A stretch of DNA of 64,000 nucleotides, taken from NCBI GenBank assembly GCA_963748215.1, contig CAVVHS010000007.1, forward strand, positions 433,693 to 497,692. Reading direction: 5' to 3'. The translations under genes were made by a program, and so were the position numbers. Under the pieces are notes generated by a model. That model saw only the letters and a list, made by a program, of their open reading frames with translations. It did not search any database and was not told the origin of the DNA. The DNA comes from an uncultured Gammaproteobacteria bacterium (lineage in GTDB: Bacteria > Pseudomonadota > Gammaproteobacteria > UBA9214). Of this stretch, positions 28,693 to 53,157 are shown piece after piece (the stretch's first letter is position 1; each line of letters opens with the position of its first letter).

Positions 28693-28895
28693 CTTCAAGC
28701 ACTCCTGTTTATCGAGGCATGCCGTGCCCCTGCCGCCCGCTGCGCGGGATGCCGTCACCTGCAGCGTGCTGTAACCCGGCTTATGCCGCGGCACTGGCCA
28801 GCTTGCATACGCCATCGGGCACTGGACCTTCGTGCGTCGAGCGGCGTGTGTCCCTCCCGGGCAGGCATGGATTGCCGGGGCCTGTCTTATATCTT

Positions 28896-28911
28896 AGCAA
28901 CATATGTGCCA
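28896..28911 (-). promoter_or_regulatory. sigma54 promoter upstream of pckA(-gltD)
   Basis: Minus strand TGGCACATATGTTGCT, a consensus TGGCAC-N5-TTGC. Confidence 0.85.
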
Positions 28912-28973: not shown

Positions 28974-29021
28974 TGCACCAGAATCCGCCGCACTGCCCTG
29001 CGTCCGCCTTGTTATGGTGCA
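28974..29021. promoter_or_regulatory. Tandem NtrC-like enhancer sites
   Basis: TGCACCAGAATCCGCCG (28974) and CGCCTTGTTATGGTGCA (29005), 31 bp apart, upstream of the sigma54 site. Confidence 0.55.
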
Positions 29022-29243: not shown

Positions 29244-29726
29244 TCATGCGTGGCCTTGATCAGCGCCACTCGGCACCCGTGGGTGCGGGGTCGCGGCTAA
29301 ACGTGCAACCAGCATCTGCAGTGCCGCCGTGAGGTTCTCGGCAGCGGCGTCACTCAGGGATGCACCAAGTTCGAAGTCGTAACCGCGCACAGCGAGTACG
29401 AATGCGGCAGGCAAGGGTGCATCGGCGACACGCACAAATGCCTCCAGCACGGCCGCCGGTGTCAGGGCGTGAGAGATCGCGCCGGCATGCGCCGCCGGGC
29501 TCACTGGCGTGAATTCGAAGGGTTCGGGCCCGGTGGCGGCAGCGTCGATGAATACCACCTCGCGGCGCCCGACCAGGTCGAGCGCATGTTCGACCTGCAG
29601 CTGGAAATCGGTCAGCAGCTCGGTATCGGGCAAACCGTGTGCCTCCAGGTGCTCGATAGCGAGTGGTCCGATGGCGTCGTCGCCGCGGCTCGGGTTGCCG
29701 ATGCCGATGACGAGGACCGGCGCCAT
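29244..29726 (-). CDS. hoxW: [NiFe] hydrogenase maturation protease
   Basis: VLVIGIGNPSRGDDAIG, FQLQVEHA, VVFIDA, SHALTP. Follows hoxH. Confidence 0.88.
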   Translation of the reverse strand: MAPVLVIGIGNPSRGDDAIGPLAIEHLEAHGLPDTELLTDFQLQVEHALDLVGRREVVFIDAAATGPEPFEFTPVSPAAHAGAISHALTPAAVLEAFVRVADAPLPAAFVLAVRGYDFELGASLSDAAAENLTAALQMLVARLAATPHPRVPSGADQGHA

Positions 29727-29746
29727 GCCGTCCGTTGGTCCGGGGC

Positions 29747-31228
29747 TCAGGGACACCGCTCGATCGAGCTCTTGACCAGGGTGTCGATGCACTGGCCCTC
29801 GGCGTCGATCAGCTCCACGTTGAACGGCATCCTGCCCAGCGCGTGGGTGGCGCAGGACAGGCAGGGATCGAAGGCACGGATCGCCACCTCGATGTGGTTC
29901 AAAAGGCCCTCGGTCAACCGGCGGCCGTCGAGGTAGCGTTTCGCCACTTGACGGATCGCCTCGTTCATCGCCTGGTTGTTATGCGTCGTCGAGACGATCA
30001 GATTGGCGCGCACCGCCTGGTCGTTCTCGTCCACCCGGTAGTGGTGAATCAGGGTGCCGCGCGGCGCCTCGATGACACCCACCCCGCGTTCACGGCGTTC
30101 GCCGGTGACCACCAGGTCATCGCCCGAGATATCCTCGTCGTGCAGCAGGTCCTTGATTGATTCTGCGGCGAACAGCAGCTCGATCATCCGCGTCCAGTGA
30201 TAGGCCAGCGTGGCGTGCACCGGCTGGCCGCCGCCGAAATCGACGAACTCGCGACGTTCCGCTTCCGCAAACGGCGTCGGTATATGATCGCAGTTCTGCA
30301 CCCGCGCCAGCGGCCCTACCTTGTACCAGCCGGCCTCGGCACCCAGTGACCGGATGTAGGGGAACTTCATGTAGGACCAGGGCCTGACCTCTTCCGTGAT
30401 GTGGTCCCAGTAGCGGTCATAGTCGACGGTATCGAAAATGATCTTGCCGTTGCTGTCGCGTGCCCGCAGCACGCCATGATAGAGGTCCATCCCTCCGTCA
30501 GGTGCGACCAGGCTCATCAGGTTGGAACGAAAGGCACCGAAGCTGTTGTAGAGGCCCGCATTGGCCAGGTGCAGGCGCTTCGCCAGCTGCACGGCGGCGC
30601 GGCACCAGCCGATGATCTGGTAGATATCCTTGAGCAGCTCGGCGCGTTCTTCACGAGTCACGGCCTTGTTGACGCCACCGGGAATCGCCCCGGTGCCGTG
30701 TATGCGCTTGCCGGCAGTGACGCGGATCACCTCCTGGCCGAAGCGGCGCAGCAGCACGCCTTGCCTGGCGATATCCGGATACTCGGCCGCAACACCGACG
30801 ATGTTGCGTCGCGCGACGTCCGAATCGAATCCGAACAGCAGGTCAGGCGAGGACAGGTGAAAGAAGTGCAGCGCATGTGACTGCAGTATCTGTCCGTAAT
30901 GCATGAGCCGCCGGATCTTGTCGGCGGTCGGGGTCAGGTGGTCGACACCGACCACCTGGTCCAGCGCCTTGGCCGCCGCCAGGTGATGGCTGACCGGGCA
31001 GATCCCGCACAGGCGCTGCACCATGACCGGGATTTCCCAGTACGGCCGGCCCTGGATGAACTTCTCGAAACCGCGAAACTCGACGATATGCAGCCGGACC
31101 TGCTGTACGTGATCATCGCCATCGAGCAGGATGGTTACCTTGCCATGCCCCTCCACGCGGGAGAGCGGCTCGATGACCACGCGCTTCAGTCTGGCGGGAT
31201 TGGCGGCGGTTTCCAGTTCAAAGCTCAT
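29747..31228 (-). CDS. hoxH: Group 3d NAD-reducing hydrogenase large subunit
   Basis: SRVEGHGK, L1 motif [23 protein letters not shown]2 motif DPCLSCATH with a cleavable C-terminal tail. Confidence 0.95.
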
Positions 31229-31250
31229 TGGGCAGGACTCCGGTGTGTAC

Positions 31251-31802
31251 TCAGTCGTAATGGATCAGGCCGTGGCCGAGATGCGGTGTGCGCCCTGCCA
31301 GCAGGTCGGTGAGGAATTTCCAGATCGCGTCCGCGGTCGGCGGGCAACCGGGCAGGAAATAGTCGATTTTCACCACCTCGTGCAGGGCGTGTACCTTGTC
31401 CAGCGGCAGCGGCAGCTCGGGGTCGTTGGGGATGCAGCCCTTCGCCAGGCTGACCTCGGTGACGTAGACCTCCTGCAGACAGTCGCCGAGGTCGAGGTGA
31501 TTGCGCTGCGCCGGCAGTCCGCCGTTTACCGCGCAGGCGCCCACCGCGACCAGGATCTTGCACTGCTTGCGAAACTCGCGCAGCACGTGAACGTTGTCCG
31601 CGTTGCAGATGCCGCCCTCGATGAGGCCGACATCGCAGGGGCCGCAGTGCTTGATGTCGGTGAACGGCGAGCGGTCGAACTCGATACGATCGAGCAGCTC
31701 GAACAGCCGCTCGTCGATGTCGAGAAATGACATGTGGCAGCCGAAACAGCCGGCGAGCGAAGTGGTCGCGACACGCAGTTTGGGCTGGGCGGGTTCGCTC
31801 AT
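31251..31802 (-). CDS. hoxY: NAD-reducing hydrogenase small subunit
   Basis: SLAGCFGCHMS, GACAVNGG, PGCPP. True start is MSEPAQ at 31802, overlapping the hoxU stop. Confidence 0.93.
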   Translation of the reverse strand: MSEPAQPKLRVATTSLAGCFGCHMSFLDIDERLFELLDRIEFDRSPFTDIKHCGPCDVGLIEGGICNADNVHVLREFRKQCKILVAVGACAVNGGLPAQRNHLDLGDCLQEVYVTEVSLAKGCIPNDPELPLPLDKVHALHEVVKIDYFLPGCPPTADAIWKFLTDLLAGRTPHLGHGLIHYD

Positions 31803-32551
31803 GTCGAATCCTTGCGCCGGGTCGTCGGCTGGCGCGGTGCGTCCCCGAGGGCCTGGGCGCTGACCGGCTGCCGGTCGAAGCGCCGTTCGCCGATGGGCAC
31901 CCTGAACCCGACGCGCTTGTGCAGGATCACCCCGACGGGGCATACCTCCATGGCCTTGTCGGTGACGGCGATATCGGTGTCGGCCAGCCGCCTGGATTCG
32001 GCATTGACAATCAGATGCTTGGTAATGCCGCGGCCCGACAGGGCGAACACGCACTTGTGGTCGACCTCTCTCGAGGCGCGCACGCAGAGTTCGCACAGGA
32101 TGCAGCGGTTGAATTCGAGCAGGATATCGGGATGCGAGGCATCGACCGGCCGGTTCGGAAACAGGTAGTCGAACTCGGTCGACATGATATCGAGATCGTA
32201 GGCCACCGCCTGCAGCAGGCAGTTGCCGCTTGCCTCGCAGGACGGACAGAAGTGGTTGCCCTCGATAAACAGCATCTGTACCACTGTCTGGTGTTCCTTT
32301 TTGAGTCGCTCGGTCTGGCTCGCCACTTCCATGCCGGCCTGTGCCCGCAGGGTGCAGGACGCCGTGGTCCGGCCGTTCACCTCCACCGTGCAGACCTTGC
32401 AGCTGCCATGCGGCTTGAACTCGGGGTGATAACAGAGGTGCGGGATGTAATGGCCTGCGGCAAGCGCGGCCTGGATCACCGTCTGCCCGGGTTCGAACGG
32501 CACCTCTTCCCCGTCGAGCAGAAACGTCGCGGTATTCGCTTCGGCGTTCAT
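31799..32551 (-). CDS. hoxU: Diaphorase small subunit
   Basis: IPHLC...GSCKVCTV, HFCPSCEASGNC, RCILCELCVRA, CPVG. Confidence 0.93.
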   Translation of the reverse strand: MNAEANTATFLLDGEEVPFEPGQTVIQAALAAGHYIPHLCYHPEFKPHGSCKVCTVEVNGRTTASCTLRAQAGMEVASQTERLKKEHQTVVQMLFIEGNHFCPSCEASGNCLLQAVAYDLDIMSTEFDYLFPNRPVDASHPDILLEFNRCILCELCVRASREVDHKCVFALSGRGITKHLIVNAESRRLADTDIAVTDKAMEVCPVGVILHKRVGFRVPIGERRFDRQPVSAQALGDAPRQPTTRRKDST

Positions 32552-34332
32552 TCATCGGCCCCCAGGTGTGCGCCGGCGTCAGTCCGGCCGGTCATCGCCC
32601 GGGCCCGTTCCAGCGCCCCGTCCAGGTCGAAGGCGGGCTCGAATTCGAGCGACTCCAGGTGGCGCTCGTAGGCCGGGCGAAAGCGCTTGATGGTATCGAG
32701 GAGCGGATTGCAGGCCGTGTGACCGAGCCCGCAGTGACTCGCGGACTGCAACAGCCGGCTGAGCCGGAAGATCTGGTTGAGATCATACAGGGAGCCCTTG
32801 CCTCCCTGCAGCTTGTCCATCACGTTGCACAGCAGCGTGGTGCCGACCCGGCAGGGTGTGCAGAAGCCGCAACTCTCGTGCGCGAAGAAATGCGTGAAAT
32901 TACGCGCCACCTCGAACATGTCGCGCGATTCGTCAAACACCATGAAGGCGCCGGCGGTCGGCAGGTCCTCGAAGGCGATGTGCCGCTCGAACTCGGTTGC
33001 GTCGATGCAGGTTCCCGAGGGGCCGCTGACCTGAACCGCCTGGGTGCGTTCCGCCCCGCAGTCCTCCAGCACCTGGCGCACCGTCACGCCGAACGGATAC
33101 TCGTAAATGCCGGGGCGTGCGCAGTCACCGGATACCGACAGGATCTTGCTGCCCGTGGACTTGCCGGTACCGATGCTGCCATACCATTCGTTGCCGTGCA
33201 GCGCGATCAGTGCCGCCGCGCAGAAGGTCTCGACATTATTCACCGTGGTCGGCTGCTGGAGGTAGCCGTGGGTGACCGGGTAGGGCGGACGGTTGCGCGG
33301 AATGCCCCGCTTGCCTTCCAGCGATTCGATGAGCGCGGACTCTTCACCGCAGATATAGGCGCCGGCACCGAGGTGAATCTCGATATCGAAGCCGAAACCG
33401 GCCTGGCCGCAGATGTCAGTGCCCAGCAGGCCCTCGGCACGCCGGCGCGCCAGCACCTCCTGCAAGGGCGGGAGCAGATGCCGGTACTCCCCGCGCAGGT
33501 AGAGGAAGCCCTGGCGTGCGCCGATCACGTGAGCGCAAACGGTCATGCCCTCGAACATCAGGTCAGCGTAGCGCGTCAGCAGCACCCGGTCCTTGAAGGT
33601 CCCCGGCTCGCCCTCGTCCGCATTGCAGACGACGTAGTGACTGTCACCCGCCGCGTTCCGGCAGGACTGCCACTTGAGCCCGGTGGCGAAGCCCGCACCG
33701 CCCCGGCCACGCAGGTTGGAACGTTGTATTGCCTCCAGCGTCGCCAGCGGTCCCCGGGTGATCGCGCTGCGGATGGCGGTGCCCGGTTCGAGCGAGGCGT
33801 CGAGCAGGATGTCCTTGCGGTGTATGTTGTCCTCGATCCGGAACAGCCCGGCCGGCCAGTCCTCGACCGGCGTGCGCGAGCGTATCAGTTCGGCAATCTC
33901 GTCGACCCGTGCCGTGGTGAGTTGCGGGATGGCCCAGCCGTTCACCAGCATGGCAGGGCCCTGGTCGCACATGCCGGTGCATGACGTGGTATCGACGCTT
34001 ACCAGGCCGTCCTCGGATGTCTTGCCGCGCTCCAGCCAGAGACTGTTGCACAGGTGTTCCAGCAACGCCAGGTTGCCCGCCATGCGGTCGGTGATGTTGT
34101 CGGAGAACAGCACCCGGTAGCTGCCGGCAGGCTCGAGGTGCAGGAAGCTGTAGAAACCGGCCACGCCTTCGACACGGCCGCGTGGCAGCTTGAGCAATCG
34201 CGCCAGGCAGGTCAGTGTGGCCGGCGGCAGCCAGCCCTCGATCTCCTCGGCCTCCCGCAGGATCTGCAGCAGCGCGGTCTGCTCGCTGCCGTAGCGGTCA
34301 ACGATAGTTTCCAGTTCGGTCTGTGCTTCCAT
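32548..34332 (-). CDS. hoxF: Diaphorase large (FMN/NAD-binding) subunit
   Basis: NuoE-like N-terminus, LRGRGGAGF, CNADEGEPGTFKDR, GAGAYICGEESAL, ESCGFCTPCRVG, CGLG. Confidence 0.94.
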   Translation of the reverse strand: MEAQTELETIVDRYGSEQTALLQILREAEEIEGWLPPATLTCLARLLKLPRGRVEGVAGFYSFLHLEPAGSYRVLFSDNITDRMAGNLALLEHLCNSLWLERGKTSEDGLVSVDTTSCTGMCDQGPAMLVNGWAIPQLTTARVDEIAELIRSRTPVEDWPAGLFRIEDNIHRKDILLDASLEPGTAIRSAITRGPLATLEAIQRSNLRGRGGAGFATGLKWQSCRNAAGDSHYVVCNADEGEPGTFKDRVLLTRYADLMFEGMTVCAHVIGARQGFLYLRGEYRHLLPPLQEVLARRRAEGLLGTDICGQAGFGFDIEIHLGAGAYICGEESALIESLEGKRGIPRNRPPYPVTHGYLQQPTTVNNVETFCAAALIALHGNEWYGSIGTGKSTGSKILSVSGDCARPGIYEYPFGVTVRQVLEDCGAERTQAVQVSGPSGTCIDATEFERHIAFEDLPTAGAFMVFDESRDMFEVARNFTHFFAHESCGFCTPCRVGTTLLCNVMDKLQGGKGSLYDLNQIFRLSRLLQSASHCGLGHTACNPLLDTIKRFRPAYERHLESLEFEPAFDLDGALERARAMTGRTDAGAHLGADE

Positions 34333-34618
34333 CAGTCGTGTACCACCGGGTTATGGAGGGGCGCGGTATGGCGGGCTGGAGAAACACCATCCTCAGGCGG
34401 CCGCCTGTCAACTTCAGTATACGGCATCAGCTGCACGTCATGCGGGCCGCAGTGAACGGGATGTCGTAACGGCAGCTGGTGATGTGCCGGGCATTACCGG
34501 GCAAGTCGAAGGTTACCCTGCAGACAGGTTTTGCCTTGAGAAGCCGCTTTTTCATCTTGCGTGACCTCCTGCACATGTCGTGCGGGTCGCCGGGATGCGA
34601 GTGGCGGCAGGCAGGCGC

Positions 34619-37294
34619 CTACTCGCGACCCATGTCGCTCGAAACGCCGCCCGCTGCCGGCAGATAGCAATTGACAACATAATCCTTGACCATGCGGTCG
34701 GCATTGAAGCGCCAGCCCAGGGTGCGGATGGAGCGTTTCATGCGCGCGATCCAGGCATGCGGCAAGCCATCCGGGTCGCGCTGGTAGTAAAGCGGTATCA
34801 CCTCATCCTGCAGTACACGGTACAGGGCCGCGGCATCGCGCTGGTCCTGCAGTGCCTGGTTGCTGTGGGTTTCACCGTTGCTGATGGTAAATCCGTTGCG
34901 GCCGTCGTAGGCCTCCGCCCACCAGCCGTCCAGCACCGAGAGGTTGAGTCCGCCGTTGAGCACGACCTTCTGCCCGCTGGTGCCCGAGGCTTCCAGTGGC
35001 CGTCGCGGGTTGTTCAGCCACACATCGACGCCCTGCACCAGGTGGCGCGCGGTGTTCATGTCGTAGTTTTCGACAAACACGATCTTGCCGGCAAAGCGCG
35101 GATCGCGGCTGAGCTGGTCGATGTCCTGCAGGATGCCCTTGCCGACGCTGTCCTGGGGATGCGCCTTGCCCGCGAACAGGACCTGTACCGGGGCCTGCGG
35201 ATTGTTGACCAGGCGATCCAGTGCCTCCAGGTCATCGAGCAGCAGGTGACTGCGCTTGTATTCGGCGAAGCGGCGCGCGAAGCCGATGGTGAGCGTGTCG
35301 AGGTTGAGCGAGCGGCGCAGCTCCTCCATCACCGCGGCTGTCGCCCCGCGGCGCTGCTCCTGGCCGGTGACGCGGTGCCGGACGAAATCGAGCAGGCGTG
35401 CCTTCAGGATCTGGTGCGTTTCCCACAGTTCGCCGTCATCCAGCCGGTCGATGCCGGTCCATACCCCGGGCTCGGCGCTGTGCTGCGCCCAGTCCGGGCC
35501 GAAATGGCGTTCGTACAGGGTGCGCATCTGCGGTGCCAGCCAGGACAGGACATGCACGCCGTTGGTGATATGACCGATAGGCGGCGACCGGCCGGGCCAC
35601 AGATCGCGCCACATGGAACGCGACACCCGGCCGTGCAGGGCGGACACGCCGTTGGTACGGCGTGACATCTTCAGCGCCAGCACGGTCATGCAGAAGGTTT
35701 CCCCGGGGTTGTGCGGATTCACCCGGCCCAGTCCCATGAACTCGTCATAGCTGATGCCGAGCGCATCGCGCAGCGGGCCCAGGTGTTCTTCCACCATATC
35801 GGTATGGAAGCGGTCGTGGCCGGCCGGTACCGGGGTATGGGTGGTGAAGACATTGCGGCGCGCCACACGCAGCATGGCGTCCCAGAAATGAATGCCCTCC
35901 AGTTGCATGCGGGTACGCGCGATTTCCAGGGACGCAAAGGCGCTGTGGCCCTCGTTCATGTGCAGCACGCCCGGTGTGATGCCCAGGGCGTCCAGGGCGC
36001 GCACGCCACCGACGCCCAGCAGGAGCTCGTGGCGGATGCGGGTGCGGGCATCACCACCGTAGAGGCGCGCGGTCAGGGCCCGGTCCTCCTCGTTGTTCCC
36101 GGGTACATCCGAATCCAGCAGCAGCAGGGTGCAGCGGCCGACGGCGAGTTTCCAGACGCGTGCGGACAGCGTGCCGTTGCGGGTCTGGATATGGATCATC
36201 AGGGGCTGCCCGTCAGCGCCGGTGGCCGGCTCCATGGGCAGCTGCCAGGCATCGACGTCGAGGTAGTCCTCGTGCTGCCAGCCGTCCTGGTCCAGGTGCT
36301 GGCGGAAATAACCCTGGCTGTAATAGAGCCCGACGCCGATCAACGGTACGCCGAGATCGGAGGCGCTCTTGACGTGGTCGCCGGCCAGGATGCCCAGGCC
36401 GCCGGAGTAGATGGGCACGGATTCATGCAGGCCGAACTCGGCGGAAAAATACGCCACCGGGCGGGCGCCGAGCACGCCGGCATGGGTGTCGCCCCAGGAA
36501 TCCCGATTGCCGAGATATTCCTGCAGGCGCCGGCAGGTTTGATTGATGCCGCCGCTCAGCACGTGGCGGTCGATGTTTTCCTCCAGCTCGAGCAGCGGGA
36601 TTTCGGCAATCAGGGCCACGGGATTGTGGTCCAGCTCCTGCCAGCGCAGCGGGTTGAGGGCGTGGAACAGCCCTTCGGCCACCATGTCCCAGCACCACCA
36701 CAGGTTGCGGGCCAGGCCGTAAAGACGCTCGTAGTCCGGCGCGATCAGTTGTTCGATCTTGCGTACCTCGCCGACGATGGGACCCAGCGGCGCGGTTGCG
36801 CTAACCAGCTGCTGGATTTCGTTCGGGGAGAAGGTGCGCGGCTCGGTGGTCTGTACCACCAGGACACCCTGCAGCAGCCCGCGGTCCAGCAGCGGCAGGC
36901 CGAGGAAGGAATGGTAGGGCTCCTCGCCGGTTTCCGGAAAGTACTTGAAGCGTGCATGCTGACTGGCGTCTTCCACCATGATGGGCCGGGATTCCTGGGC
37001 CACCAGGCCGGCCAGTCCTTCGTGCAGGCTCATGCGCACCTTGCGCACGCTTTCCTGGCGCAGGCCCAGGGTCGCGGCCAGCACCAGGTGGCTGCGGTCG
37101 GGTTCGAGCAGGTACACCGAGCAGACATTGGTATGGAAGTGCGCCTGGATCAGCTGGATCACGGAATTGAGCGTCACCGCCGGATCGCCGCGCTCGGCGA
37201 CCATCGTGCGCAGCGCCTCCACGTTGAGGTGCTGTTCCACGACCGGCTGCAGCGATGGGGTCGAAGGCGCCGCTGCTGGATCGTTCAAATTCAT
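34619..37294 (-). CDS. glgP: Alpha-glucan phosphorylase (YSGGLG type) with an N-terminal PtsP-like GAF domain
   Basis: LARNLWW, VAYFSAEFG, YSGGLGILAGDH, HMNEGH, GFARRFAEYKR, EASGTSGQK (PLP Lys). N-terminal VCSVYLL...LAATLGL...EGLAGLV...FKYFPETGEEPYHSFLGLP...GVLVVQ is a GAF domain. Confidence 0.92.
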   Translation of the reverse strand: MNLNDPAAAPSTPSLQPVVEQHLNVEALRTMVAERGDPAVTLNSVIQLIQAHFHTNVCSVYLLEPDRSHLVLAATLGLRQESVRKVRMSLHEGLAGLVAQESRPIMVEDASQHARFKYFPETGEEPYHSFLGLPLLDRGLLQGVLVVQTTEPRTFSPNEIQQLVSATAPLGPIVGEVRKIEQLIAPDYERLYGLARNLWWCWDMVAEGLFHALNPLRWQELDHNPVALIAEIPLLELEENIDRHVLSGGINQTCRRLQEYLGNRDSWGDTHAGVLGARPVAYFSAEFGLHESVPIYSGGLGILAGDHVKSASDLGVPLIGVGLYYSQGYFRQHLDQDGWQHEDYLDVDAWQLPMEPATGADGQPLMIHIQTRNGTLSARVWKLAVGRCTLLLLDSDVPGNNEEDRALTARLYGGDARTRIRHELLLGVGGVRALDALGITPGVLHMNEGHSAFASLEIARTRMQLEGIHFWDAMLRVARRNVFTTHTPVPAGHDRFHTDMVEEHLGPLRDALGISYDEFMGLGRVNPHNPGETFCMTVLALKMSRRTNGVSALHGRVSRSMWRDLWPGRSPPIGHITNGVHVLSWLAPQMRTLYERHFGPDWAQHSAEPGVWTGIDRLDDGELWETHQILKARLLDFVRHRVTGQEQRRGATAAVMEELRRSLNLDTLTIGFARRFAEYKRSHLLLDDLEALDRLVNNPQAPVQVLFAGKAHPQDSVGKGILQDIDQLSRDPRFAGKIVFVENYDMNTARHLVQGVDVWLNNPRRPLEASGTSGQKVVLNGGLNLSVLDGWWAEAYDGRNGFTISNGETHSNQALQDQRDAAALYRVLQDEVIPLYYQRDPDGLPHAWIARMKRSIRTLGWRFNADRMVKDYVVNCYLPAAGGVSSDMGRE

Positions 37295-37337
37295 GGTCGT
37301 TCTCGTGTGAGCCGGATCGTGTCGGGTCGGGCGCAGC

Positions 37338-38591
37338 CTAGGCGGATTTGCTGCGGCTGTTGCCGGACTGTGCCTGCAATTCGAGCAGTTCTTCCTCGAC
37401 CCCGGCGGCATGCGTCAGCTGGGCCACGTTCTCCTTGGTGAAGAAGCCCTGGAAATCACCGAAGCGCTGTACGTACTCGATGATCAGCGAGGAATGTTCC
37501 GAGGCGCTGGAGAAGATCTGTTTCAGGCCCTGGTCCCTGGAGCCAATGACGTCGAGCAGGAAGTCACGACCCTGGGCGGCGATTCGGCTGACGACGTGTT
37601 CGATGTTTTCCACGCCATCAGTCTCGCCGTCACGCACGGCCAGGGCGATATGATGCAGCCGCGGACCGTAGTTGCGCACGAAGGTCTCGGTGGGCGAGGG
37701 CAGCTGTTCGAGATGGTTGACGAAGTAGGGCGTGTTGTTGGCGGTGAACACCTTGGCCGGACTGTGTATTTCGCTGCCGGGGTGCGCGTTCTTGGTGACA
37801 TTGGTCGAGGAATTCTGGTCGTGGATGTCGTAGGAGCCCCAGTAGTAGTAGCTGGAAAGCGACAGCCATTCCAGGATGGCGACCTCCCGGTTCTGGCTGT
37901 AGATGCGCGTGGCCAGATGGTCGATGGGCAGGATCAGGTCGTCGATGTGCAGCGTCTTCTGCAGTTCCTTGGCAGCCAGGTAGACATCCTGCACCTCCGG
38001 ATTGATGCTGCTGATACCCAACGCGTAGACCCGGATCTGCTCGGGCGTCCGCTCCATGTAGCCGACGATGTTGTGGGTGTAGGGCGACGGCTTGACGATA
38101 GCGAGGTTGCCGGGCAGTTCCAGCTTGCGGGCGTCGTCCTGGGAGAAGAAGCGGAATTCCCGCGCCTGCTGGGTTTCGACCACGCCGTGCAGGTCGCTGA
38201 CCCGCAGGATTTCACCCATGTAACGGCTGTTGGGTTTGCGCGCGCCGATGGGGTAGACCTCGTTGAGGCTGCGGAAGATGCCGCGCGTACGCCGGTCCTT
38301 GACCTCGCGTACCAGGAAGTCCGGCGAGTTCATGTCGATGCGCAGGACATGCGTCCAGTGGCTCTTGCTCTCCAGCGTCACCAGGTAGTGGTAAGGCGTC
38401 ATCAGCGCCAGTTCGCCGATGTAGCGTATGGAATTGCCGGGATCGACGGTGATCATGATGGCCTCGATCTGGTCGATCATGTCGGTCAGGCCGCTGCGGT
38501 CGCGCTCTTCCAGCAGGCGCAACAGGTACTCCTCGAAGAACGGTGAATTCTGCTTGTCGCCGTGGCGGGCGAATGTGGTCGAGCTGGTCAT
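37338..38591 (-). CDS. Uncharacterised VOC/HPPD-fold protein
   Basis: IDHLATRI, GPRLHHIAL, LKQIFS and IIEYVQR...GFF follow the order of the HPPD C-terminal domain motifs (His-His-Glu triad). Confidence 0.7.
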   Translation of the reverse strand: MTSSTTFARHGDKQNSPFFEEYLLRLLEERDRSGLTDMIDQIEAIMITVDPGNSIRYIGELALMTPYHYLVTLESKSHWTHVLRIDMNSPDFLVREVKDRRTRGIFRSLNEVYPIGARKPNSRYMGEILRVSDLHGVVETQQAREFRFFSQDDARKLELPGNLAIVKPSPYTHNIVGYMERTPEQIRVYALGISSINPEVQDVYLAAKELQKTLHIDDLILPIDHLATRIYSQNREVAILEWLSLSSYYYWGSYDIHDQNSSTNVTKNAHPGSEIHSPAKVFTANNTPYFVNHLEQLPSPTETFVRNYGPRLHHIALAVRDGETDGVENIEHVVSRIAAQGRDFLLDVIGSRDQGLKQIFSSASEHSSLIIEYVQRFGDFQGFFTKENVAQLTHAAGVEEELLELQAQSGNSRSKSA

Positions 38592-38633
38592 GTCTGGCTA
38601 TCCAATCCTGTCGATGTTTGCTGTCGATAGCTT

Positions 38634-38649
38634 TGCAATATTTACGCCA
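38634..38649 (-). promoter_or_regulatory. sigma54 promoter for the HPPD-like / GAF-glgP operon
   Basis: Minus strand TGGCGTAAATATTGCA, GG-N10-GC, about 45 bp upstream of the start codon. Confidence 0.75.
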
Positions 38650-38745
38650 TATGCTCGCCACCGGGCTGCATTGCCCGTTTGCAGCCAGAATTGCGTCCCT
38701 GGCCACCCGCCGCGTCCCTTCAGGCGCGCCGGCACGAGGGTGTCA

Positions 38746-38794
38746 TGCACACCTATGCAGCACGGCAGACTGTCGGTTGCACCAGAATTGACCG
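38746..38794. promoter_or_regulatory. Tandem NtrC-like enhancer sites
   Basis: TGCACACCTATGCAGCA (38746) and TGCACCAGAATTGACCG (38778), 32 bp apart. The second shares TGCACCAGAAT with the site at 28974. Confidence 0.5.
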
Positions 38795-39014
38795 ATGGGC
38801 GGGCGTCCGCCGGACGGCATCAACATTCCAGGCGGCGGGGAATGCTTGCGTTGTCCGGATAGCGGGGGGAATGCTGTTGCGCGACTTTACCCCGGTGTCG
38901 GCACAAGGCAGGTTGGCGGGCGATGCCCGGGCCAATCACCCGGTTCGCGGCGGGAGAGGCGGTGTTGCGCAATATTCCGCGCCCGCTGCCGGATGACGGG
39001 GAGAAATGTCCGGG

Positions 39015-39183
39015 CTAGGAGCCTGTCGGACTTGGGCGATCGTAGCGAGCCGGGTGGGAGAACGAGGTCATTTTTTCGATCGTTCGAGGAGAATAGCCGT
39101 AGCTATTTGACGAGGAGGATCGGAAAAATGGGCCGCTGTCCCGCCGGCGCAGGAGATCAGTCCTAAGTCCGACAGACTCCTAG
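39015..39183. mobile_element. MITE with terminal inverted repeats, flanked by CTAG
   Basis: Left end CTAG-GAGCCTGTCGGACTTGGG; right end (reverse complement) CTAG-GAGTCTGTCGGACTTAGG. Nested internal palindromes CATTTTTTCGATC/GATCGGAAAAATG and AATAGC/GCTATT. No transposase. Confidence 0.8.
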
Positions 39184-39488
39184 ACCACGACCACGGAGTT
39201 ATCCGAGGTACCGAAGGGATTCGGCACATACTTGTCGGCGTCCCAGTCGTTTTCCCAGGTGTCGGCATCGATCAGGTAGCGGAACTGGTATTCGTGGTTG
39301 GTCTCGAGTTCGAGCGTGACCTTGAATGTGCCGTCCTTGAGTTTCTTCAGCGGAATGGCGTAGAGATTCCACTCGTTGAATTCACCGACGATATGAACGT
39401 TGCTGGCATCTTTCGCCGCCTCGGGCGGCAGCCGAAACGTCACCTTGCAGACCGGCTTGGATTTCAGATACTGCTTAGTAAGGCTCAT
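39180..39488 (-). CDS. Isoamylase early-set / CBM48 glycogen-binding protein
   Basis: KQYLKSKPVCKVTF, VGEFNEW, YQFRYLID, WENDWDAD, NPFG..NSVV. AGGAGG SD before ATG at 39488. Confidence 0.9.
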   Translation of the reverse strand: MSLTKQYLKSKPVCKVTFRLPPEAAKDASNVHIVGEFNEWNLYAIPLKKLKDGTFKVTLELETNHEYQFRYLIDADTWENDWDADKYVPNPFGTSDNSVVVV

Positions 39489-39665
39489 CGCCTCCTCCTG
39501 AACGCTGTTGTGATGGTCGCTGCGTGTACAACACAAGGCAAGGATACATCTAGTTGAGCGGACCGTGCAAAGCAAGCGTTTTTTTCCGGGACCGACAGAG
39601 ATCTACTAGCAGAGATCTACTATCAGTCGATCGACATCAACCGGGCTGGCATGCGGCCATCGTCC

Positions 39666-40367
39666 TCACGGCGCCGGTGACGGCGGCATGACGCCAGCGG
39701 TCGATGCCCAGTCGTCATCCCAGAGCCGGAAGCCGCCGGCAAAGGCATTGGCGTTGTCGCCGCGGAACACGTGTTCCGGCAACTCGTCATCCTTGAATTT
39801 CCAGACATTGCCGCCGCCCAGCACCACGTAGTCCGGATAAAGCGCATACCGGAACAGTGCAATGGCCTCCAGCACCTGTGCCTTCCAGCCGGCCAGTCCG
39901 GTGCGGTCGAGGCCCGCCTTGCCGAGCGCGTACTCGAAGGTCTGGCCATCACGAAACGGCAGGTGGGCCATTTCCATGGGCACGATGTGACCATCGTGAA
40001 TGATGGCGGAGCCCAGCCCCGTGCCGAGTCCCAGGAACAGCATGTGGCCGCCCCGGTAACTGCCCAGGGCCTGCATGGCGGCGTCGTTGATGAGCCGGAC
40101 AGGGCTGCCGAATGCGGCCGCGTAGTCGAAATCCACCCAGCCGCCACCCAGGTTGACCGGCTCGCGCAACGGACGGTTGGCGCGGATGGGGCCGGGAAAG
40201 CCGATGGAGGCGCGCTCGTAGTGCCAGTCGCCGGCGGTTTCGTCCAGCGCCTGCATCAGTTGCTGCGGTGTCATGTGCGACGGGGTGGGAAAACTGCGCG
40301 GTACGGTCTCGCCCGTCAATGCCAGCTTGACGCTGAGACCACCGATGTCCACCACGAGTATGTTCAT
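39666..40367 (-). CDS. ROK-family (polyphosphate) glucokinase-like protein
   Basis: ILVVDIGG, SIGFPGP, INDAAMQALG, FLGLGTGLGS, VVLGGGN, NANAFAGG. Confidence 0.88.
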   Translation of the reverse strand: MNILVVDIGGLSVKLALTGETVPRSFPTPSHMTPQQLMQALDETAGDWHYERASIGFPGPIRANRPLREPVNLGGGWVDFDYAAAFGSPVRLINDAAMQALGSYRGGHMLFLGLGTGLGSAIIHDGHIVPMEMAHLPFRDGQTFEYALGKAGLDRTGLAGWKAQVLEAIALFRYALYPDYVVLGGGNVWKFKDDELPEHVFRGDNANAFAGGFRLWDDDWASTAGVMPPSPAP

Positions 40368-40745
40368 GAGCTGTCCCTTTGGCAGGTGAGCGGATCGGAG
40401 TTGGCTGCAGGTTATCATGTCCGGCAACGCGGGCAATGACCGGCGTGCCGTAGTACACGGCGTATGCCGTGCGCAACTGGTTCTGCGCACGGGAATATTG
40501 ATTTGTGTCAACAGCCTGCGTAGTTTTCTGTATTCAATTATACTGCGGGTATGAGGCGCCATGGGCCTGTTGACGGGCCGGGTCACACCGGCCGGGCGAT
40601 AGTCGGCAGTGTTCATTTCCCATGCGCCGCACCATGCGTCCGTGTATCCTTGTGCGCCGCAGGTCAAGCGTGGCGTGGATGGCCCCCTGCACTGGTGCCG
40701 GCGCGGATGTGCCGGAGGCGTCCCGTTTGCCAGGGATTCGACAAT

Positions 40746-42422: not shown

Positions 42423-42423
42423 G

Positions 42424-43743: not shown

Positions 43744-43767
43744 CGCGGACTCCCGCGAGGAATATCG

Positions 43768-50598: not shown

Positions 50599-50604
50599 CA
50601 GCGA

Positions 50605-53157
50605 GTGACCATGAACGAAAGCAACCCCGCCCACAAGGAACTTCACCTGCAGCCCGTTATGGAGCCGCTACCGCTCGATGCCGACGCCATTCGCAGGGAT
50701 TTCGATTTTTACCTGACGCATCACCGCGGCCACTTCCTCGGCTGTACCGAGGTCGATGTCTACCAGGCGCTCGCGGTGACCATTCGTGACCGGCTCATGT
50801 CCGACTGGCGCAATACCTGGCGTGCCTTTACCCGGCCCGGTACGCGCCGCGCCTGCTACCTGTCGCTGGAATTCCTGATGGGCCGCGCGCTGGGCAACCA
50901 CCTGCTCAACCTGAAACTGCGCGATGCGGCCAGCGGCGCGATGCAACAGCATGCATTGGCCCTCGAGGAGATCGAGAGCGAGGAAGTGGACGCCGGACTC
51001 GGCAACGGCGGCCTGGGAAGACTGGCCGCCTGCTTCATGGACAGCTGCGCCAGTCTGCAGCTGCCGGTGATCGGTTACGGCATCCGCTACCAGTACGGCA
51101 TGTTTCACCAGCACATCAAGGACGGCTACCAGGTCGAGGATCCCGATCACTGGCTGCGTGACGGTTTCCCCTGGGAGATCGAACGGCCCGAGTTCACCCA
51201 GGTGGTGCGTTTTGGCGGTCGTGTGGAGCATTACCGCGACACACAGGACCGTCCGCGCATGCGCCTGGTCGACACCGACGACGTGCTGGCCATACCCTAC
51301 GACGTGCCGATCTCCGGCTTTGCCAACGACACCGTGAACACGCTGCGCCTGTGGAGCTCCGCGGCCACCGACGAGTTCAACCTGCACGAATTCAACGCCG
51401 GCAGTTATACCGAGGCGGTCGCCGCCAAGAACAGCGCCGATCACATCAGCATGGTGCTGTATCCGAACGACAGTTCCGAGAACGGCAAGGAACTGCGCCT
51501 GCGCCAGCAGTATTTCCTGGCCTCGGCCAGCATCCAGGACATGCTGGCGATCTGGGAGAGTAGCGAGGGCGAGGACTGGGAACGTTTCACCGAGCTGAAC
51601 GTGTTCCAGATGAATGATACCCACCCGACCATCGCCGTGGCGGAACTGATGCGCATCCTGCTGGACGAGAAAGGGCTGGAATGGGACAAGGCCTGGGATA
51701 TCACCCGCCATTGCATGGCCTACACCAACCATACCCTGTTGCCGGAGGCACTGGAGAAGTGGCCGGTGTGGCTGTTCGACAGGCTGTTGCCGCGTCTGCT
51801 GGAAATCATCTACGAAATCAACGCGCACTTCCTGGAAGAAGTCGCGATGCGCTGGCCCGGGGATGCCGGCATCCTGCACCGGCTGTCGATTATCGAGGAA
51901 GGTCATGTCAAGCAGGTGCGCATGGCGCACCTGGCCATCGTCGGCAGCTTCTCGGTCAACGGCGTGGCCGAACTGCACTCGCAACTGCTGCAGGAAAAAC
52001 TGTTCCGCGACTTCCACCGCATCTGGCCCGGCAAGTTCAACAACAAGACCAATGGCGTCACGCCACGGCGCTGGATCGCGCACGCCAATCCGGGCCTGAC
52101 CGGGCTGTTGAGCGAGACTATCGGCGACGGCTGGCTGCATGACCTGGACGAGATCGGCCTGCTGGAACGCCATGCCGAGCAGGCGGACAGCGCCTTGTTC
52201 AAACGCTGGGAGGACGTCAAGCTGGAGAACAAGCGCCGCCTGGCGGCGGTGGTGCTGGACAAGGCCGGCGTGCAGTTCGATACCGCGTCGATGTTTTCCG
52301 TGCAGGTCAAGCGCATCCATGAATACAAGCGCCAGCTGCTCAACGTGCTGCATGTGATCCATCTTTACCGGCGCATCCGCGACGGCGACACGGACGGGAT
52401 GGTCAACCGCTGCGTGCTGATCGGCGGCAAGGCGGCGCCAGGCTACTGGATGGCCAAGCAGATCATCAAGCTGGTCAACAGCGTGGCGGCTATCGTCAAT
52501 AACGACCCGCTGGTGGGTGACCGGCTCAAGCTGGCCTTCATTCCCAACTACCGGGTATCGCTGATGGAGGTGATCGCTCCGGCCGCCGACCTGTCCGAGC
52601 AGATATCCACGGCCGGCAAGGAGGCGTCGGGCACCGGCAACATGAAATTCATGATGAACGGCGCGCTCACCATCGGCACCTACGATGGCGCGAATATCGA
52701 GATCCTGGATGCCGTCGGCGAGGACAATTTCTTCCTCTTCGGGCTGCATGCGGAAGAGGTCGCCGCGCTGCGCAACAACTACGACCCGCGCTCCGTCGTC
52801 GATGCGGATCCGGATCTCGACAAGGTCATGCAGTTGCTGGCCTCGGGTTACTTCAATCTGCAGGAACCCGGCATCTTCGACGGTGTCATCCAGGCATTGC
52901 TGTCGCCGGACGATCCCTGGGTCACGCTGGCGGATTTCCGTGCCTACGTCGACGCCCAGGAACGGGCCGCCGCGGCGTGGCAGGACCGGCACCACTGGAC
53001 GCAGATGAGTATCCGCAACGTGGCCTCCAGCGGTTTCTTCTCGACCGACCGGACCATCAGCGACTACAACCGCGACATCTGGAAGCTCGACCCGCTGCAC
53101 CTGGACGCTCTGCAGCCGGCCGGACCGGCAGATGTGCAATCCGGCCGCCGGGGGTAG
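50605..53157 (+). CDS. glgP: Glycogen/starch phosphorylase (classical type)
   Basis: YLSLEFLMGR, GLGNGGLGRLAAC, MNDTHP, KRIHEYKRQ, EASGTGNMKF. Confidence 0.97.
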   Translation: MTMNESNPAHKELHLQPVMEPLPLDADAIRRDFDFYLTHHRGHFLGCTEVDVYQALAVTIRDRLMSDWRNTWRAFTRPGTRRACYLSLEFLMGRALGNHLLNLKLRDAASGAMQQHALALEEIESEEVDAGLGNGGLGRLAACFMDSCASLQLPVIGYGIRYQYGMFHQHIKDGYQVEDPDHWLRDGFPWEIERPEFTQVVRFGGRVEHYRDTQDRPRMRLVDTDDVLAIPYDVPISGFANDTVNTLRLWSSAATDEFNLHEFNAGSYTEAVAAKNSADHISMVLYPNDSSENGKELRLRQQYFLASASIQDMLAIWESSEGEDWERFTELNVFQMNDTHPTIAVAELMRILLDEKGLEWDKAWDITRHCMAYTNHTLLPEALEKWPVWLFDRLLPRLLEIIYEINAHFLEEVAMRWPGDAGILHRLSIIEEGHVKQVRMAHLAIVGSFSVNGVAELHSQLLQEKLFRDFHRIWPGKFNNKTNGVTPRRWIAHANPGLTGLLSETIGDGWLHDLDEIGLLERHAEQADSALFKRWEDVKLENKRRLAAVVLDKAGVQFDTASMFSVQVKRIHEYKRQLLNVLHVIHLYRRIRDGDTDGMVNRCVLIGGKAAPGYWMAKQIIKLVNSVAAIVNNDPLVGDRLKLAFIPNYRVSLMEVIAPAADLSEQISTAGKEASGTGNMKFMMNGALTIGTYDGANIEILDAVGEDNFFLFGLHAEEVAALRNNYDPRSVVDADPDLDKVMQLLASGYFNLQEPGIFDGVIQALLSPDDPWVTLADFRAYVDAQERAAAAWQDRHHWTQMSIRNVASSGFFSTDRTISDYNRDIWKLDPLHLDALQPAGPADVQSGRRG

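What the first reader, a model, noticed from the sequence alone, without database searches (positions are those of the whole stretch)
34619..37294. Glycogen phosphorylase fused to an EI-Ntr (PtsP)-type GAF sensor
Seen: about 170 N-terminal residues (VCSVYLLEPDRSHLVLAATLGL...EGLAGLVAQESRPIMVEDASQHARFKYFPETGEEPYHSFLGLPLL...GVLVVQ) lead in frame into a complete PLP-dependent alpha-glucan phosphorylase. A classical glgP without the domain is at 50605. Established: this pattern closely resembles the PtsP GAF domain, which senses glutamine and 2-oxoglutarate. Inference: a one-protein switch tying glycogen breakdown to nitrogen status, itself behind a sigma54/NtrC-like promoter. I know of no characterised enzyme with this architecture.
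Basis: partly seen in the sequence, partly recalled or inferred. Interest (0 to 1): 0.8.

Follow-up and report, generated by a model that had tools for sequence, protein, structure and literature searches.

The report
Glycogen phosphorylase with PtsP-type sensor
This gene encodes an intact glycogen-degrading enzyme that carries, at its front end, the same small-molecule sensor domain that bacteria use in their nitrogen-status relay, an arrangement found in many soil and sediment bacteria but apparently never studied.

Summary
Window 34619-37294 (minus strand) is one 891-aa gene: a GAF domain (residues ~39-170), a linker, DUF3417, and a complete TIGR02094 alpha-glucan phosphorylase (825 bits). 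All catalytic residues known from the solved Segatella copri enzyme are conserved. The GAF is PtsP/EI-Ntr-type. Its best HMM is PtsP (E 6.5e-31), its best solved structures are PtsP GAFs (E 1.3e-28), it is up to 60% identical to real PtsP GAFs, and it clusters with them in a tree.

The architecture is not unique. It forms one clade found in over 100 species genomes (Acidobacteriota, Planctomycetota, a small gammaproteobacterial group), but only 1 of 301 sampled Gammaproteobacteria and 3 of 151 sampled genomes of an acidobacterial carrier's phylum. I found no paper on it.

The sigma54 claim is partly right. A conserved -24/-12 element lies upstream of the preceding, co-oriented gene, not directly before this one, and NtrC involvement is not shown.

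Best reading: a one-polypeptide, metabolite-gated phosphorylase isoenzyme, probably sensing glutamine and/or 2-oxoglutarate. The ligand, the sign of the response and the mechanism are inferred, not shown. It is a new variant of a known kind, of moderate interest.

The parts
34619..37294 (-). CDS of the GAF-DUF3417-alpha-glucan phosphorylase (891 aa, stop codon included)
   Evidence: ORF list; translation; Pfam and NCBIfam; homologues of ~885 aa
36785..37180 (-). PtsP/EI-Ntr-type GAF sensor domain (residues ~39-170)
   Evidence: Pfam GAF. Best NCBIfam family is PtsP, E 6.5e-31. PDB PtsP GAF domains 3ci6 (1.3e-28) and 3trc (2e-23). 57-60% identity to true PtsP GAFs. 39% identity to E. coli PtsP. 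30 of 132 columns invariant in 40 family members.
36725..36784 (-). Linker between GAF and DUF3417 (residues 171-190); predicted helical with low confidence
   Evidence: AF2 model, pLDDT 56-64 in this stretch; 2 of 20 columns invariant (R178, P186)
36419..36730 (-). DUF3417 N-terminal helical domain of TIGR02094-type phosphorylases (residues ~189-292)
   Evidence: Pfam PF11897, E 4.5e-22
34661..36457 (-). GT35 catalytic body (TIGR02094, residues ~280-878). Its motifs are GGLG 298-301, NEGH 447-450, THTPVPAGHD with H486, RRFAEYKR 674-681, and EASGTSGQK with the putative PLP lysine K776.
   Evidence: NCBIfam 825 bits. Alignment to Segatella copri GP 9l6i (E 4e-177) shows H316, R507, R508 and K513 conserved (residues named in PMC12912991). 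These residues are invariant in alignment A1. The PLP-lysine assignment is recalled knowledge of GT35 enzymes.
37338..38591 (-). Upstream co-oriented gene for a 417-aa conserved hypothetical protein; probable first gene of a two-gene operon
   Evidence: Its stop is 43 nt before the phosphorylase ATG. It is adjacent in L001, L002, L006, L007 and L009. No Pfam or NCBIfam family. 2846 homologues, the top 120 at 80-99% identity.
38634..38649 (-). Sigma54-type -24/-12 element TGGCGTAAATATTGCA, 43 nt upstream of the 417-aa gene
   Evidence: Pattern scan. TGGC-N8-TTGC[AT] is conserved in 5 of 5 aligned upstream regions within an otherwise diverged spacer. rpoN is present in the genome. No sigma70-like site in 34200-39700.
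38778..38789 (-). AATTCTGGTGCA block about 140 nt upstream of the -24/-12 element; a possible activator-binding site
   Evidence: The block is partly conserved in related loci. The 11-mer ATTCTGGTGCA occurs 3 times in the genome (about 0.8 expected). A second copy (28974-28984) lies upstream of the perfect sigma54 site before pckA.
50605..53157 (+). Classical GlgP (TIGR02093) without GAF, last gene of the pgi-glgC-GH57-malQ-glgB-glgA-glgP row

Best explanation
The gene encodes a catalytically competent alpha-1,4-glucan (glycogen/maltodextrin) phosphorylase of the TIGR02094 ('clade 2', DUF3417) type. An N-terminal PtsP/EI-Ntr-type GAF domain serves as a built-in small-molecule sensor. The GAF most likely binds the same effector(s) as the EI-Ntr GAF, namely glutamine and possibly 2-oxoglutarate. 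Through the conserved linker it would switch the enzyme between a more active and a less active state. One candidate mechanism is a change in oligomeric assembly or in substrate access, as AMP does in the closest solved relative. In this genome it is an accessory, regulated isoenzyme beside a classical GlgP and at least one GAF-less paralogue. It is probably co-transcribed with a conserved unknown gene from a sigma54-type promoter. My guess at the physiology is that the enzyme is made in advance and held in check until nitrogen status changes. Shown here: domain anatomy, intact catalytic residues, PtsP-type GAF, one clade for the fusion, strong conservation of the GAF, and a conserved -24/-12 element. 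Inferred: the ligand identity, the sign of the response, the allosteric route, the operon, and the activator.
For: Anatomy and intact catalytic residues. The GAF is PtsP-type by several measures. The best HMM is PtsP, 107 bits against NifA's 31 bits. The best solved structures are PtsP GAF domains. In the search restricted to the GAF region, 5 of the 120 best hits are true PtsP proteins at 57-60% identity, as close as distant GAF-phosphorylases. It is 39% identical to E. coli PtsP over 136 residues without gaps. Trees: in the 111-row tree, the 41 phosphorylase GAFs plus 12 rows of other or unknown architecture form one clade (SH-aLRT 99). That clade lies inside an 83-row clade (98) that holds all 21 PtsP GAFs, with 27 of the 28 multi-GAF proteins outside it and the 28th as its sister. 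Without the unlabelled rows, the 41 phosphorylase GAFs form one clade (99). Column comparison: 33 GAF columns are conserved with the same residue in both groups, and 0 columns are conserved differently (41 phosphorylase rows against 22 PtsP rows). This gives no sign of a change in specificity. The GAF is under selection like the enzyme: 30 of 132 columns invariant against 180 of 585, and median identity to the query of 63% against 68% over 36 distant members. The catalytic-body tree places all 25 GAF-bearing rows in one clade (support 95), with GAF-less Planctomycetota enzymes as neighbours. This fits a single fusion that has been kept since. The same GAF subtype is also joined to HAMP-HD and to histidine-kinase outputs (P0214, P0224), as expected of a portable sensor. 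Glutamine acts on EI-Ntr through its GAF: passages of PMC4848567 describe this, and that paper cites the E. coli glutamine/alpha-ketoglutarate work. Precedent that clade-2 phosphorylases are regulated through oligomer state: Segatella copri GP forms a pentamer that AMP converts to a decamer (passages of PMC12912991). Outside the gammaproteobacterial group the gene stands alone among unrelated neighbours, as a self-contained sensor-enzyme would.
Against: No ligand-binding or activity data exist for any member. The ligand-contacting residues of EI-Ntr GAFs are not defined in what I could read, so a 'same pocket' claim rests on overall conservation only. The PtsP rows used in the comparison were picked by similarity to the query, which biases the column comparison toward agreement. 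The genome's own PtsP GAF is only 41% identical. Whether the phosphorylase GAF arose from within PtsP GAFs or is merely their sister is unresolved (p-AU 0.47). The full-length AF2 model is of middling confidence (pLDDT 71.8, pTM 0.64) and gives no reliable GAF-body interface. The sigma54 site has two mismatches to the TGGCAC half. The window shows no overall enrichment of such sites, and the activator is unknown. The direction of regulation is a guess.
Confidence: 0.5

Rival explanations
1. The GAF is a true ligand sensor, but in this family it responds to an effector other than glutamine or 2-oxoglutarate. Candidates include a glycolytic or energy-charge metabolite, a nucleotide second messenger, or a redox signal through the invariant cysteine C58.
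For: GAF domains as a class bind very different ligands: DevS haem GAFs and a cGMP phosphodiesterase GAF also appear among the PDB hits, though weakly. Identity to experimentally studied E. coli PtsP is only 39%. The PtsP proteins closest to it (P0144 group) are themselves uncharacterised. C58 is invariant in the family. The closest solved phosphorylase is regulated by AMP, and its distal-site arginine R583 is conserved here as R750.
Against: No column is conserved differently between the phosphorylase and PtsP GAFs (0 switch columns against 33 shared). C58 is also conserved in 91% of the PtsP rows, so it is not a family-specific novelty. The haem and cGMP GAFs score 20 orders of magnitude worse than the PtsP GAFs.
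Confidence: 0.27
2. The GAF has lost ligand sensing and serves only as a structural or oligomerisation module, or as a docking site for a partner protein such as a PTS-Ntr component. Regulation, if any, would be indirect.
For: Many GAF domains dimerise (recalled knowledge). A link between the PTS and glycogen phosphorylase through protein-protein contact is known for E. coli HPr and GlgP (title and abstract start of PMC13324651 in the listing). The genome holds PtsP and a second EI-like gene near rpoN.
Against: The motifs shared with ligand-responsive PtsP GAFs are invariant across phyla. That is more than a scaffold would need. The same GAF subtype is reused on unrelated signalling outputs.
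Confidence: 0.15
3. The fusion is an artefact: an assembly chimera, or a mis-joined frame of two genes.
For: The window comes from a metagenome-assembled genome of 9 contigs.
Against: The same uninterrupted frame is seen in 118 of the 120 best database hits from several sources. It also occurs in more than 100 independent loci from other genomes. The linker itself is conserved. The stretch is held at 0.67-0.97 of sampled words in 6 DNA runs of 2 studies, although the best holder may be the source sample.
Confidence: 0.01

Closest known systems
Segatella copri glycogen phosphorylase ScGP (PDB 9L6I and related entries; 'clade 2' GP; PMC12912991)
   Same: It belongs to the same TIGR02094/DUF3417 family: E 4e-177 over residues 192-877, and Foldseek TM 0.68-0.71. 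Catalytic H316/R507/R508/K513 are conserved, as are the AMP-site residues E278, Y512 and R583. It shows that this clade can be regulated allosterically through its oligomeric state.
   Different: ScGP has no GAF; it starts about where our residue 160 would be. It carries a C-terminal extension of about 140 residues that is absent here (chain 852 aa, match ends at 711). Its effector, AMP, binds the catalytic body itself. The oligomeric state of the GAF-fused form is unknown.
EI-Ntr / PtsP (nitrogen-related PTS enzyme I) GAF domain
   Same: It has the same GAF subtype. The PtsP HMM is the best hit, and the solved PtsP GAFs 3ci6 and 3trc are the best structures. Identity is 57-60% to some PtsP GAFs and 39% to E. 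coli PtsP. 33 conserved columns are shared. In EI-Ntr the GAF conveys glutamine, and in E. coli also 2-oxoglutarate, to the output domain.
   Different: The output is a PLP-dependent glucan phosphorylase, not a PEP-dependent phosphotransferase. No PEP-utilizer domains are present, so it is not a PtsP. The genome has its own separate PtsP.
Chlamydomonas alpha-amylase AMA2, activated by glutamine through an N-terminal ACT domain (PMC11190351)
   Same: It is a functional analogue: a storage-glucan-degrading enzyme with an N-terminal amino-acid sensor domain that ties polymer breakdown to nitrogen status. I saw the title and abstract start and passages.
   Different: The enzyme class differs (GH13 hydrolase against GT35 phosphorylase), as do the sensor fold (ACT against GAF) and the kingdom. 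There is no homology.
E. coli GlgP regulated by HPr of the PTS (PMC13324651); classical GlgP/MalP (TIGR02093)
   Same: It is a glycogen phosphorylase under the control of a PTS-related signal. I saw only the title and abstract start in the listing.
   Different: In E. coli the control works in trans, through protein binding to a classical clade-1 enzyme. Here a PTS-Ntr-type sensor domain sits in cis on a clade-2 enzyme. The classical GlgP of this genome (50605-53157) has no such domain.

Membership tests
TIGR02094 alpha-glucan family phosphorylase (GT35, DUF3417-type, 'clade 2') | Whole-protein HMM score above the curated cut-off | tested here: met
   825.2 bits against a cut-off of 191.7
TIGR02094 alpha-glucan family phosphorylase (GT35, DUF3417-type, 'clade 2') | DUF3417 domain directly before the catalytic body | tested here: met
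   PF11897, E 4.5e-22, profile positions 6-108 of 109
TIGR02094 alpha-glucan family phosphorylase (GT35, DUF3417-type, 'clade 2') | Catalytic residues of the solved member (ScGP H316, R507, R508, K513) and the EASGTSGxK lysine for PLP | tested here: met
   They align to H486, R674, R675, K680 and K776. The residues are named in PMC12912991. All are invariant in 40 family members. The role of the PLP lysine is recalled.
TIGR02094 alpha-glucan family phosphorylase (GT35, DUF3417-type, 'clade 2') | Phosphorolysis of alpha-1,4-glucans with PLP | not testable with these tools
   Needs an enzyme assay
PtsP / EI-Ntr-type GAF domain (sensor module only) | GAF fold and Pfam GAF match | tested here: met
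   PF01590, 53.3 bits against a cut-off of 22.4. The AF2 model gives pLDDT 78-89 over residues 41-170, with a mixed helix-and-strand pattern.
PtsP / EI-Ntr-type GAF domain (sensor module only) | Closer to PtsP GAFs than to other GAF classes | tested here: met
   PtsP HMM E 6.5e-31 against NifA 1.1e-7 and NorR 7.8e-3. PDB PtsP GAFs E 1e-28 to 2e-23 against DevS or PDE at 1e-6 to 6e-8. Joint clade with all 21 PtsP GAFs, SH-aLRT 98.
PtsP / EI-Ntr-type GAF domain (sensor module only) | Binds glutamine and/or 2-oxoglutarate | not testable with these tools
   Known for EI-Ntr from the literature. No residue-level definition was available to me. The L83 position of the Caulobacter protein could not be mapped, because its supplementary alignment is closed.
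PtsP (EI-Ntr) protein proper | PEP-utilizer N-terminal, mobile and TIM-barrel domains (PF05524, PF00391, PF02896) | tested here: not met
   None were found in this protein. They are present in the PtsP hits P0144, P0164 and others. So it is not a PtsP.
Sigma54-dependent promoter | GG-N10-GC spacing with TGGC...TTGC[AT], placed shortly upstream of the gene | tested here: inconclusive
   TGGCGTAAATATTGCA lies 43 nt upstream of the preceding 417-aa gene, not of this gene. It is conserved in 5 of 5 relatives. It has two mismatches to TGGCAC, and the window shows no enrichment (44 against 39.2 expected). rpoN is present.
Sigma54-dependent promoter | Cognate enhancer-binding protein (NtrC) and its binding sites | tested here: inconclusive
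   The genome holds 11 strong enhancer-binding proteins, none of them in the window. A shared ATTCTGGTGCA block lies upstream of two sigma54-like sites. It contains TGGTGCA, which I recall as an NtrC half-site. No full palindrome is present.

The most novel reading that the evidence does not exclude
A whole, cross-phylum family of glycogen phosphorylases is gated directly by the cell's glutamine/2-oxoglutarate status, through a sensor domain shared with the nitrogen PTS. The GAF would act by pairing protomers and so switching the oligomeric state of a clade-2 phosphorylase, for example a pentamer stacking into a decamer, in the way AMP does in the Segatella copri enzyme. That would be a one-protein carbon-nitrogen switch for storage-polymer mobilisation. 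It would also be a tractable soluble system for solving how EI-Ntr-type GAF domains recognise their ligands.
Probability: 0.3. Interest if true: 0.72.

Novelty: new variant of a known kind. Interest (0 to 1): 0.55.

Why it matters
How bacteria decide when to spend glycogen is known mainly for enteric GlgP (AMP, HPr) and for cyanobacteria (redox tails). Direct metabolite gating through a fused sensor domain has not been described for any GT35 phosphorylase in the papers I could search. If the GAF reads glutamine or 2-oxoglutarate, it would be a minimal carbon-nitrogen coupling device. It would operate in Acidobacteriota and Planctomycetota, abundant and poorly understood soil and sediment groups in which storage-polymer use shapes survival. 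It would also give a soluble enzyme with an easy read-out for working out ligand recognition by EI-Ntr-type GAF domains, for which I found no ligand-bound structure by sequence search. If the GAF binds nothing, the family is just one more unannotated domain fusion.

Tried and rejected
(1) Sigma54 site directly before the gene. The 43-nt spacer and the 3' end of the upstream gene hold only AGGCACAGTCCGGCAAC, whose spacing is off by one (read by eye). Rejected.

(2) Hydrogenase as a conserved partner. The group-3-type [NiFe]-hydrogenase genes downstream (29244-34332) are missing in relatives L007 and L003, where pckA follows the phosphorylase directly. They are not part of the unit.

(3) Conserved neighbours in distant carriers. 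None were found in L008 or L012.

(4) Other N-terminal sensor fusions. L081 and L076 looked like candidates because of long open frames. They turned out to be separate upstream genes or a C-terminal extension.

(5) PtsP paraphyly. A first AU test rejected PtsP monophyly (p 8.5e-63). That result was an artefact of unlabelled fragments placed among the PtsP rows, and the group had been named after I saw the tree. With those rows left out, p-AU is 0.47. The question of 'nested within PtsP' is left open.

(6) The search of protein representatives on the GAF region gave 13641 hits at E<=1e-3, 3564 at <=1e-10 and 139 at <=1e-30. Many representatives are fragments, so architecture counts could not be made from it.

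(7) Complex prediction on two copies of residues 20-195 gave no verdict (score 0.00). This is no evidence either way.

(8) The look-up of sequencing runs listed no RNA holder. Expression and the operon remain untested.

(9) The 417-aa neighbour. No Pfam hit reached significance; the best was Glyoxalase_4 at E 0.069. The protein atlas gave only conserved hypotheticals, with VOC/HPPD-like leads at 0.85-0.93. The AF2 model failed (pLDDT 33), so no fold search was made.

(10) Mapping of Caulobacter EI-Ntr L83 was not possible. I held no sequence of that protein, and the paper's supplementary alignment is closed.

(12) The claim '1 of 301 Gammaproteobacteria' rests on the 150 best matches printed; 140 weaker matches were not listed. 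The sample includes three genomes flagged as unpublished (G296, G141, G039), which showed only GAF-less matches.


Full report
**1. What is there**

The minus strand carries one open frame, 34619..37411. It sits 43 nt after the stop of the upstream gene and fits homologues of about 885 aa.

Pfam finds GAF, DUF3417 and the carbohydrate phosphorylase domain in that order. NCBIfam files the body under TIGR02094 'alpha-glucan family phosphorylase', with 825 bits against a cut-off of 191.7. The N-terminal 140 residues match the PtsP model best (E 6.5e-31), far ahead of NifA (1.1e-7) and NorR. The classical GlgP at 50605-53157 is confirmed and has no GAF.

**2. Is the enzyme intact?**

The closest solved structure is the Segatella copri glycogen phosphorylase (9L6I and related entries), at E 4e-177. 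Foldseek on my AF2 model agrees, with TM 0.68-0.71.

The paper on that enzyme (PMC12912991; passages read) names three sets of residues:
- catalytic H316, R507, R508 and K513;
- a proximal AMP site (E278, Y512, R508);
- a distal AMP site (R583).

In the residue-by-residue alignment all of them are conserved here (H486, R674, R675, K680, E448, Y679, R750). So is the EASGTSGQK motif, whose lysine I take, from recalled knowledge of GT35 enzymes, to hold PLP. These positions are invariant in an alignment of 40 family members. I conclude that it is an active alpha-glucan phosphorylase.

The same paper reports that this 'clade 2' enzyme lacks the tower helix and is a pentamer. AMP inhibits it by stacking pentamers into a decamer that keeps glycogen out.

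**3. What kind of GAF?**

- Against solved structures, the two best hits are PtsP GAF domains (3ci6 at 1.3e-28, 3trc at 2e-23). Haem- or cGMP-binding GAFs score around 1e-6 to 6e-8.
- A database search restricted to residues 20-185 returned 4787 hits. Of the 120 best, 115 are GAF-phosphorylases and 5 are real PtsP proteins carrying the PEP-utilizer domains. Those five are 57-60% identical over 98% of the region.
- E. coli PtsP, the protein on which the glutamine/2-oxoglutarate work was done, is 39% identical over 136 residues without a gap.
- The genome's own PtsP (contig C8) is 41% identical, so the domain is not a recent in-genome copy.

In a tree of 111 GAF regions, the 41 dereplicated phosphorylase GAFs (from 190) and 12 rows of other or unknown architecture form one clade (SH-aLRT 99). 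That clade sits inside an 83-row clade (98) that holds all 21 PtsP GAFs. Of the 28 multi-GAF proteins, 27 lie outside it and one is its sister. With the unlabelled rows removed, the phosphorylase GAFs are one clade (99). An AU test does not decide whether they are nested within PtsP GAFs or sister to them (p 0.47). An earlier, much stronger-looking test was an artefact (see Tried and rejected).

Column by column, 33 positions are conserved with the same residue in both groups, and none is conserved differently. The caveat is that the PtsP rows were found through similarity to the query.

**4. Is it unique?**

No. Of the 120 best full-length hits, 118 carry the GAF. They come from Pseudomonadota, Thiohalobacterales, Pirellulales, Planctomycetaceae, Blastocatellia, Vicinamibacterales and Bryobacteraceae, and are named only 'alpha-glucan family phosphorylase' or 'starch phosphorylase'.

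Scans of species-representative genomes gave:
- 11 of 13 loci with the GAF part;
- 17 of 80 loci with the GAF part;

These are mostly Acidobacteriota, plus Isosphaeraceae, Planctomicrobium and Pirellulales.

Yet the fusion is sparse within lineages. It was found in only G000 among 301 sampled Gammaproteobacteria. It was found in 3 of 151 genomes sampled from the phylum of an acidobacterial carrier.

A tree of the catalytic body (91 rows; four loci with split matches were left out) puts all 25 GAF-bearing rows in one clade (support 95, FastTree). One row cut by a contig end falls with them. GAF-less Planctomycetota enzymes at 56-62% identity are the neighbours. The window's own GAF-less paralogue lies far away. 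The simplest history is one fusion event, retention, and some horizontal spread, including into this small gammaproteobacterial group.

The GAF is about as conserved as the enzyme. It has 30 of 132 invariant columns against 180 of 585. Median identity to the query is 63% against 68%. The same GAF subtype also occurs on HAMP-HD and histidine-kinase proteins.

**5. Surroundings**

In this genome the gene lies in a glycogen and central-carbon neighbourhood.

On the plus strand:
- pgi, glgC, a GH57-like gene, malQ, glgB, glgA and glgP (40551-53157).

On the minus strand:
- a ROK/polyphosphate-type glucokinase;
- a 102-aa CBM48/AMPK-type glycogen-binding protein (39183-39488);
- the 417-aa unknown;
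- the GAF-phosphorylase;
- a group-3-type [NiFe]-hydrogenase set with a NuoE/F-like diaphorase;
- a maturation protease;
- pckA;
- a class I aldolase.

Only the 417-aa gene is a conserved neighbour among close relatives (5 loci). The hydrogenase is not: pckA follows directly in L007 and L003. Distant carriers have unrelated neighbours. The genome also has at least one further TIGR02094 paralogue. The GAF form is therefore an extra, specialised isoenzyme.

**6. Promoter claim**

There is no good -24/-12 element in the 43-nt gap before the gene. The element TGGCGTAAATATTGCA lies 43 nt upstream of the 417-aa gene, with correct GG-N10-GC spacing. TGGC-N8-TTGC[AT] is the one conserved block near the start in 5 of 5 aligned relatives.

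No sigma70-like site was found in 34200-39700, and rpoN is present. An 11-mer, ATTCTGGTGCA, lies about 140 nt upstream. It recurs upstream of the perfect sigma54 site before pckA; it occurs 3 times in the genome against about 0.8 expected. It contains TGGTGCA, which I recall as an NtrC half-site. There is no full palindrome, and no activator gene lies in the window.

So a sigma54-driven operon of the 417-aa gene plus the phosphorylase is likely. 'NtrC-like' is a lead only.

**7. Mechanism**

Established from the literature: glutamine inhibits EI-Ntr autophosphorylation through its GAF in Caulobacter and Sinorhizobium. In E. coli glutamine and alpha-ketoglutarate act reciprocally. I read passages of PMC4848567, which cites the other two studies.

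Inference: the fused GAF reads the same signal and passes it through the conserved linker (R178 and P186 are invariant) to the DUF3417/catalytic body.

Because the nearest solved relative is regulated by oligomer stacking, a ligand-dependent change of assembly is my preferred route. I could not test it: full-length multimers exceed the size limit, and the GAF-pair job gave no verdict.

The sign of the response is a guess. Activation by glutamine would release stored carbon when nitrogen returns, as in the glutamine-activated Chlamydomonas amylase (PMC11190351).

**8. Novelty**

Three searches found no paper that joins a GAF domain to an alpha-glucan phosphorylase:
- 'GAF domain' with 'glucan phosphorylase' (3 papers, none relevant);
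- GAF / glycogen phosphorylase / DUF3417;
- 'GAF domain' with maltodextrin phosphorylase, starch phosphorylase or GlgP (none of the 15 listed holds 'GAF domain').

The 2024 Chemical Reviews survey of prokaryotic alpha-glucan enzymes has no 'GAF' in the 300,000 characters held. The 2026 papers on bacterial and phototroph phosphorylases have none either. Subscription journals and supplements were not searchable.

I rate it a new variant of a known kind: an uncharacterised, widespread, sensor-fused phosphorylase family.

Noticed in passing
window 37338-38591 (-): This is a 417-aa protein with no Pfam or NCBIfam family that is extraordinarily conserved. It has 2846 database homologues, and the 120 best are 80-99% identical, all called hypothetical (Thiogranum, Sulfurirhabdus, many Gammaproteobacteria MAGs). 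218 alignment columns are invariant in 24 sequences. It shows faint VOC/HPPD-like features at the C-terminus only. It is the probable operon partner of the GAF-phosphorylase in this clade.
   Followed up: partly
window 28896-28911 (-) and 28974-28984 (-): A perfect sigma54 consensus, TGGCACATATGTTGCT, lies upstream of pckA (27079-28815). The same ATTCTGGTGCA block found before the 417-aa gene lies about 60 nt further upstream. This suggests a shared sigma54 activator for gluconeogenic and glycogen genes. Only 15 strict sites exist in the 3.5-Mb genome, and 2 of them are in this window.
   Followed up: partly
window 29244-34332 (-): A group-3-type cytosolic [NiFe]-hydrogenase set is wedged between the phosphorylase and pckA. 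It consists of a NuoE/F-like diaphorase fusion, a small-subunit fusion, a large subunit and a maturation protease. Relatives L007 and L003 lack it at this place, so it looks like an insertion into a glycogen/gluconeogenesis locus.
   Followed up: partly
window 39183-39488 (-): A stand-alone 102-aa protein consists of a CBM48 / AMPK-beta-type glycogen-binding module (E 1.6e-6). It lies between the glucokinase and the long spacer before the 417-aa gene.
   Followed up: no
proteins P0214 and P0224 (metagenome hits): The same PtsP-type GAF subtype (51-55% identity, and inside the phosphorylase GAF clade of the tree) is fused to HAMP + HD(HD_5) and to HisKA-HATPase-receiver outputs. P0197, P0213 and P0272 carry it with C-terminal parts of no known family.
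   Followed up: partly
window 15202-15217 (+), ORFs 15339-16790 and 16793-17773 (+): A second perfect sigma54 consensus precedes a circularly permuted ATP-grasp (CP_ATPgrasp_2) plus Alpha-E gene pair. This pair lies just upstream of gltB (17847-22322).
   Followed up: no
G000 C7:393060-395168 (-) and C6:135743-137568 (+): There are further TIGR02094-type phosphorylase paralogues in the same genome. The C6 copy matched in three pieces that may be in different frames, so it may be frameshifted or a shorter form.
   Followed up: no
loci L029-L043 (Planctomycetota, including Lacipirellula limnantheis I41 and Pirellulaceae SH501): These are the closest GAF-less relatives of the fused family (56-62% identity). 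They begin exactly where the GAF-linker ends (query residue ~188). The Pirellulales genome G302 holds both a fused and a GAF-less copy. They are useful natural controls for the role of the GAF.
   Followed up: partly
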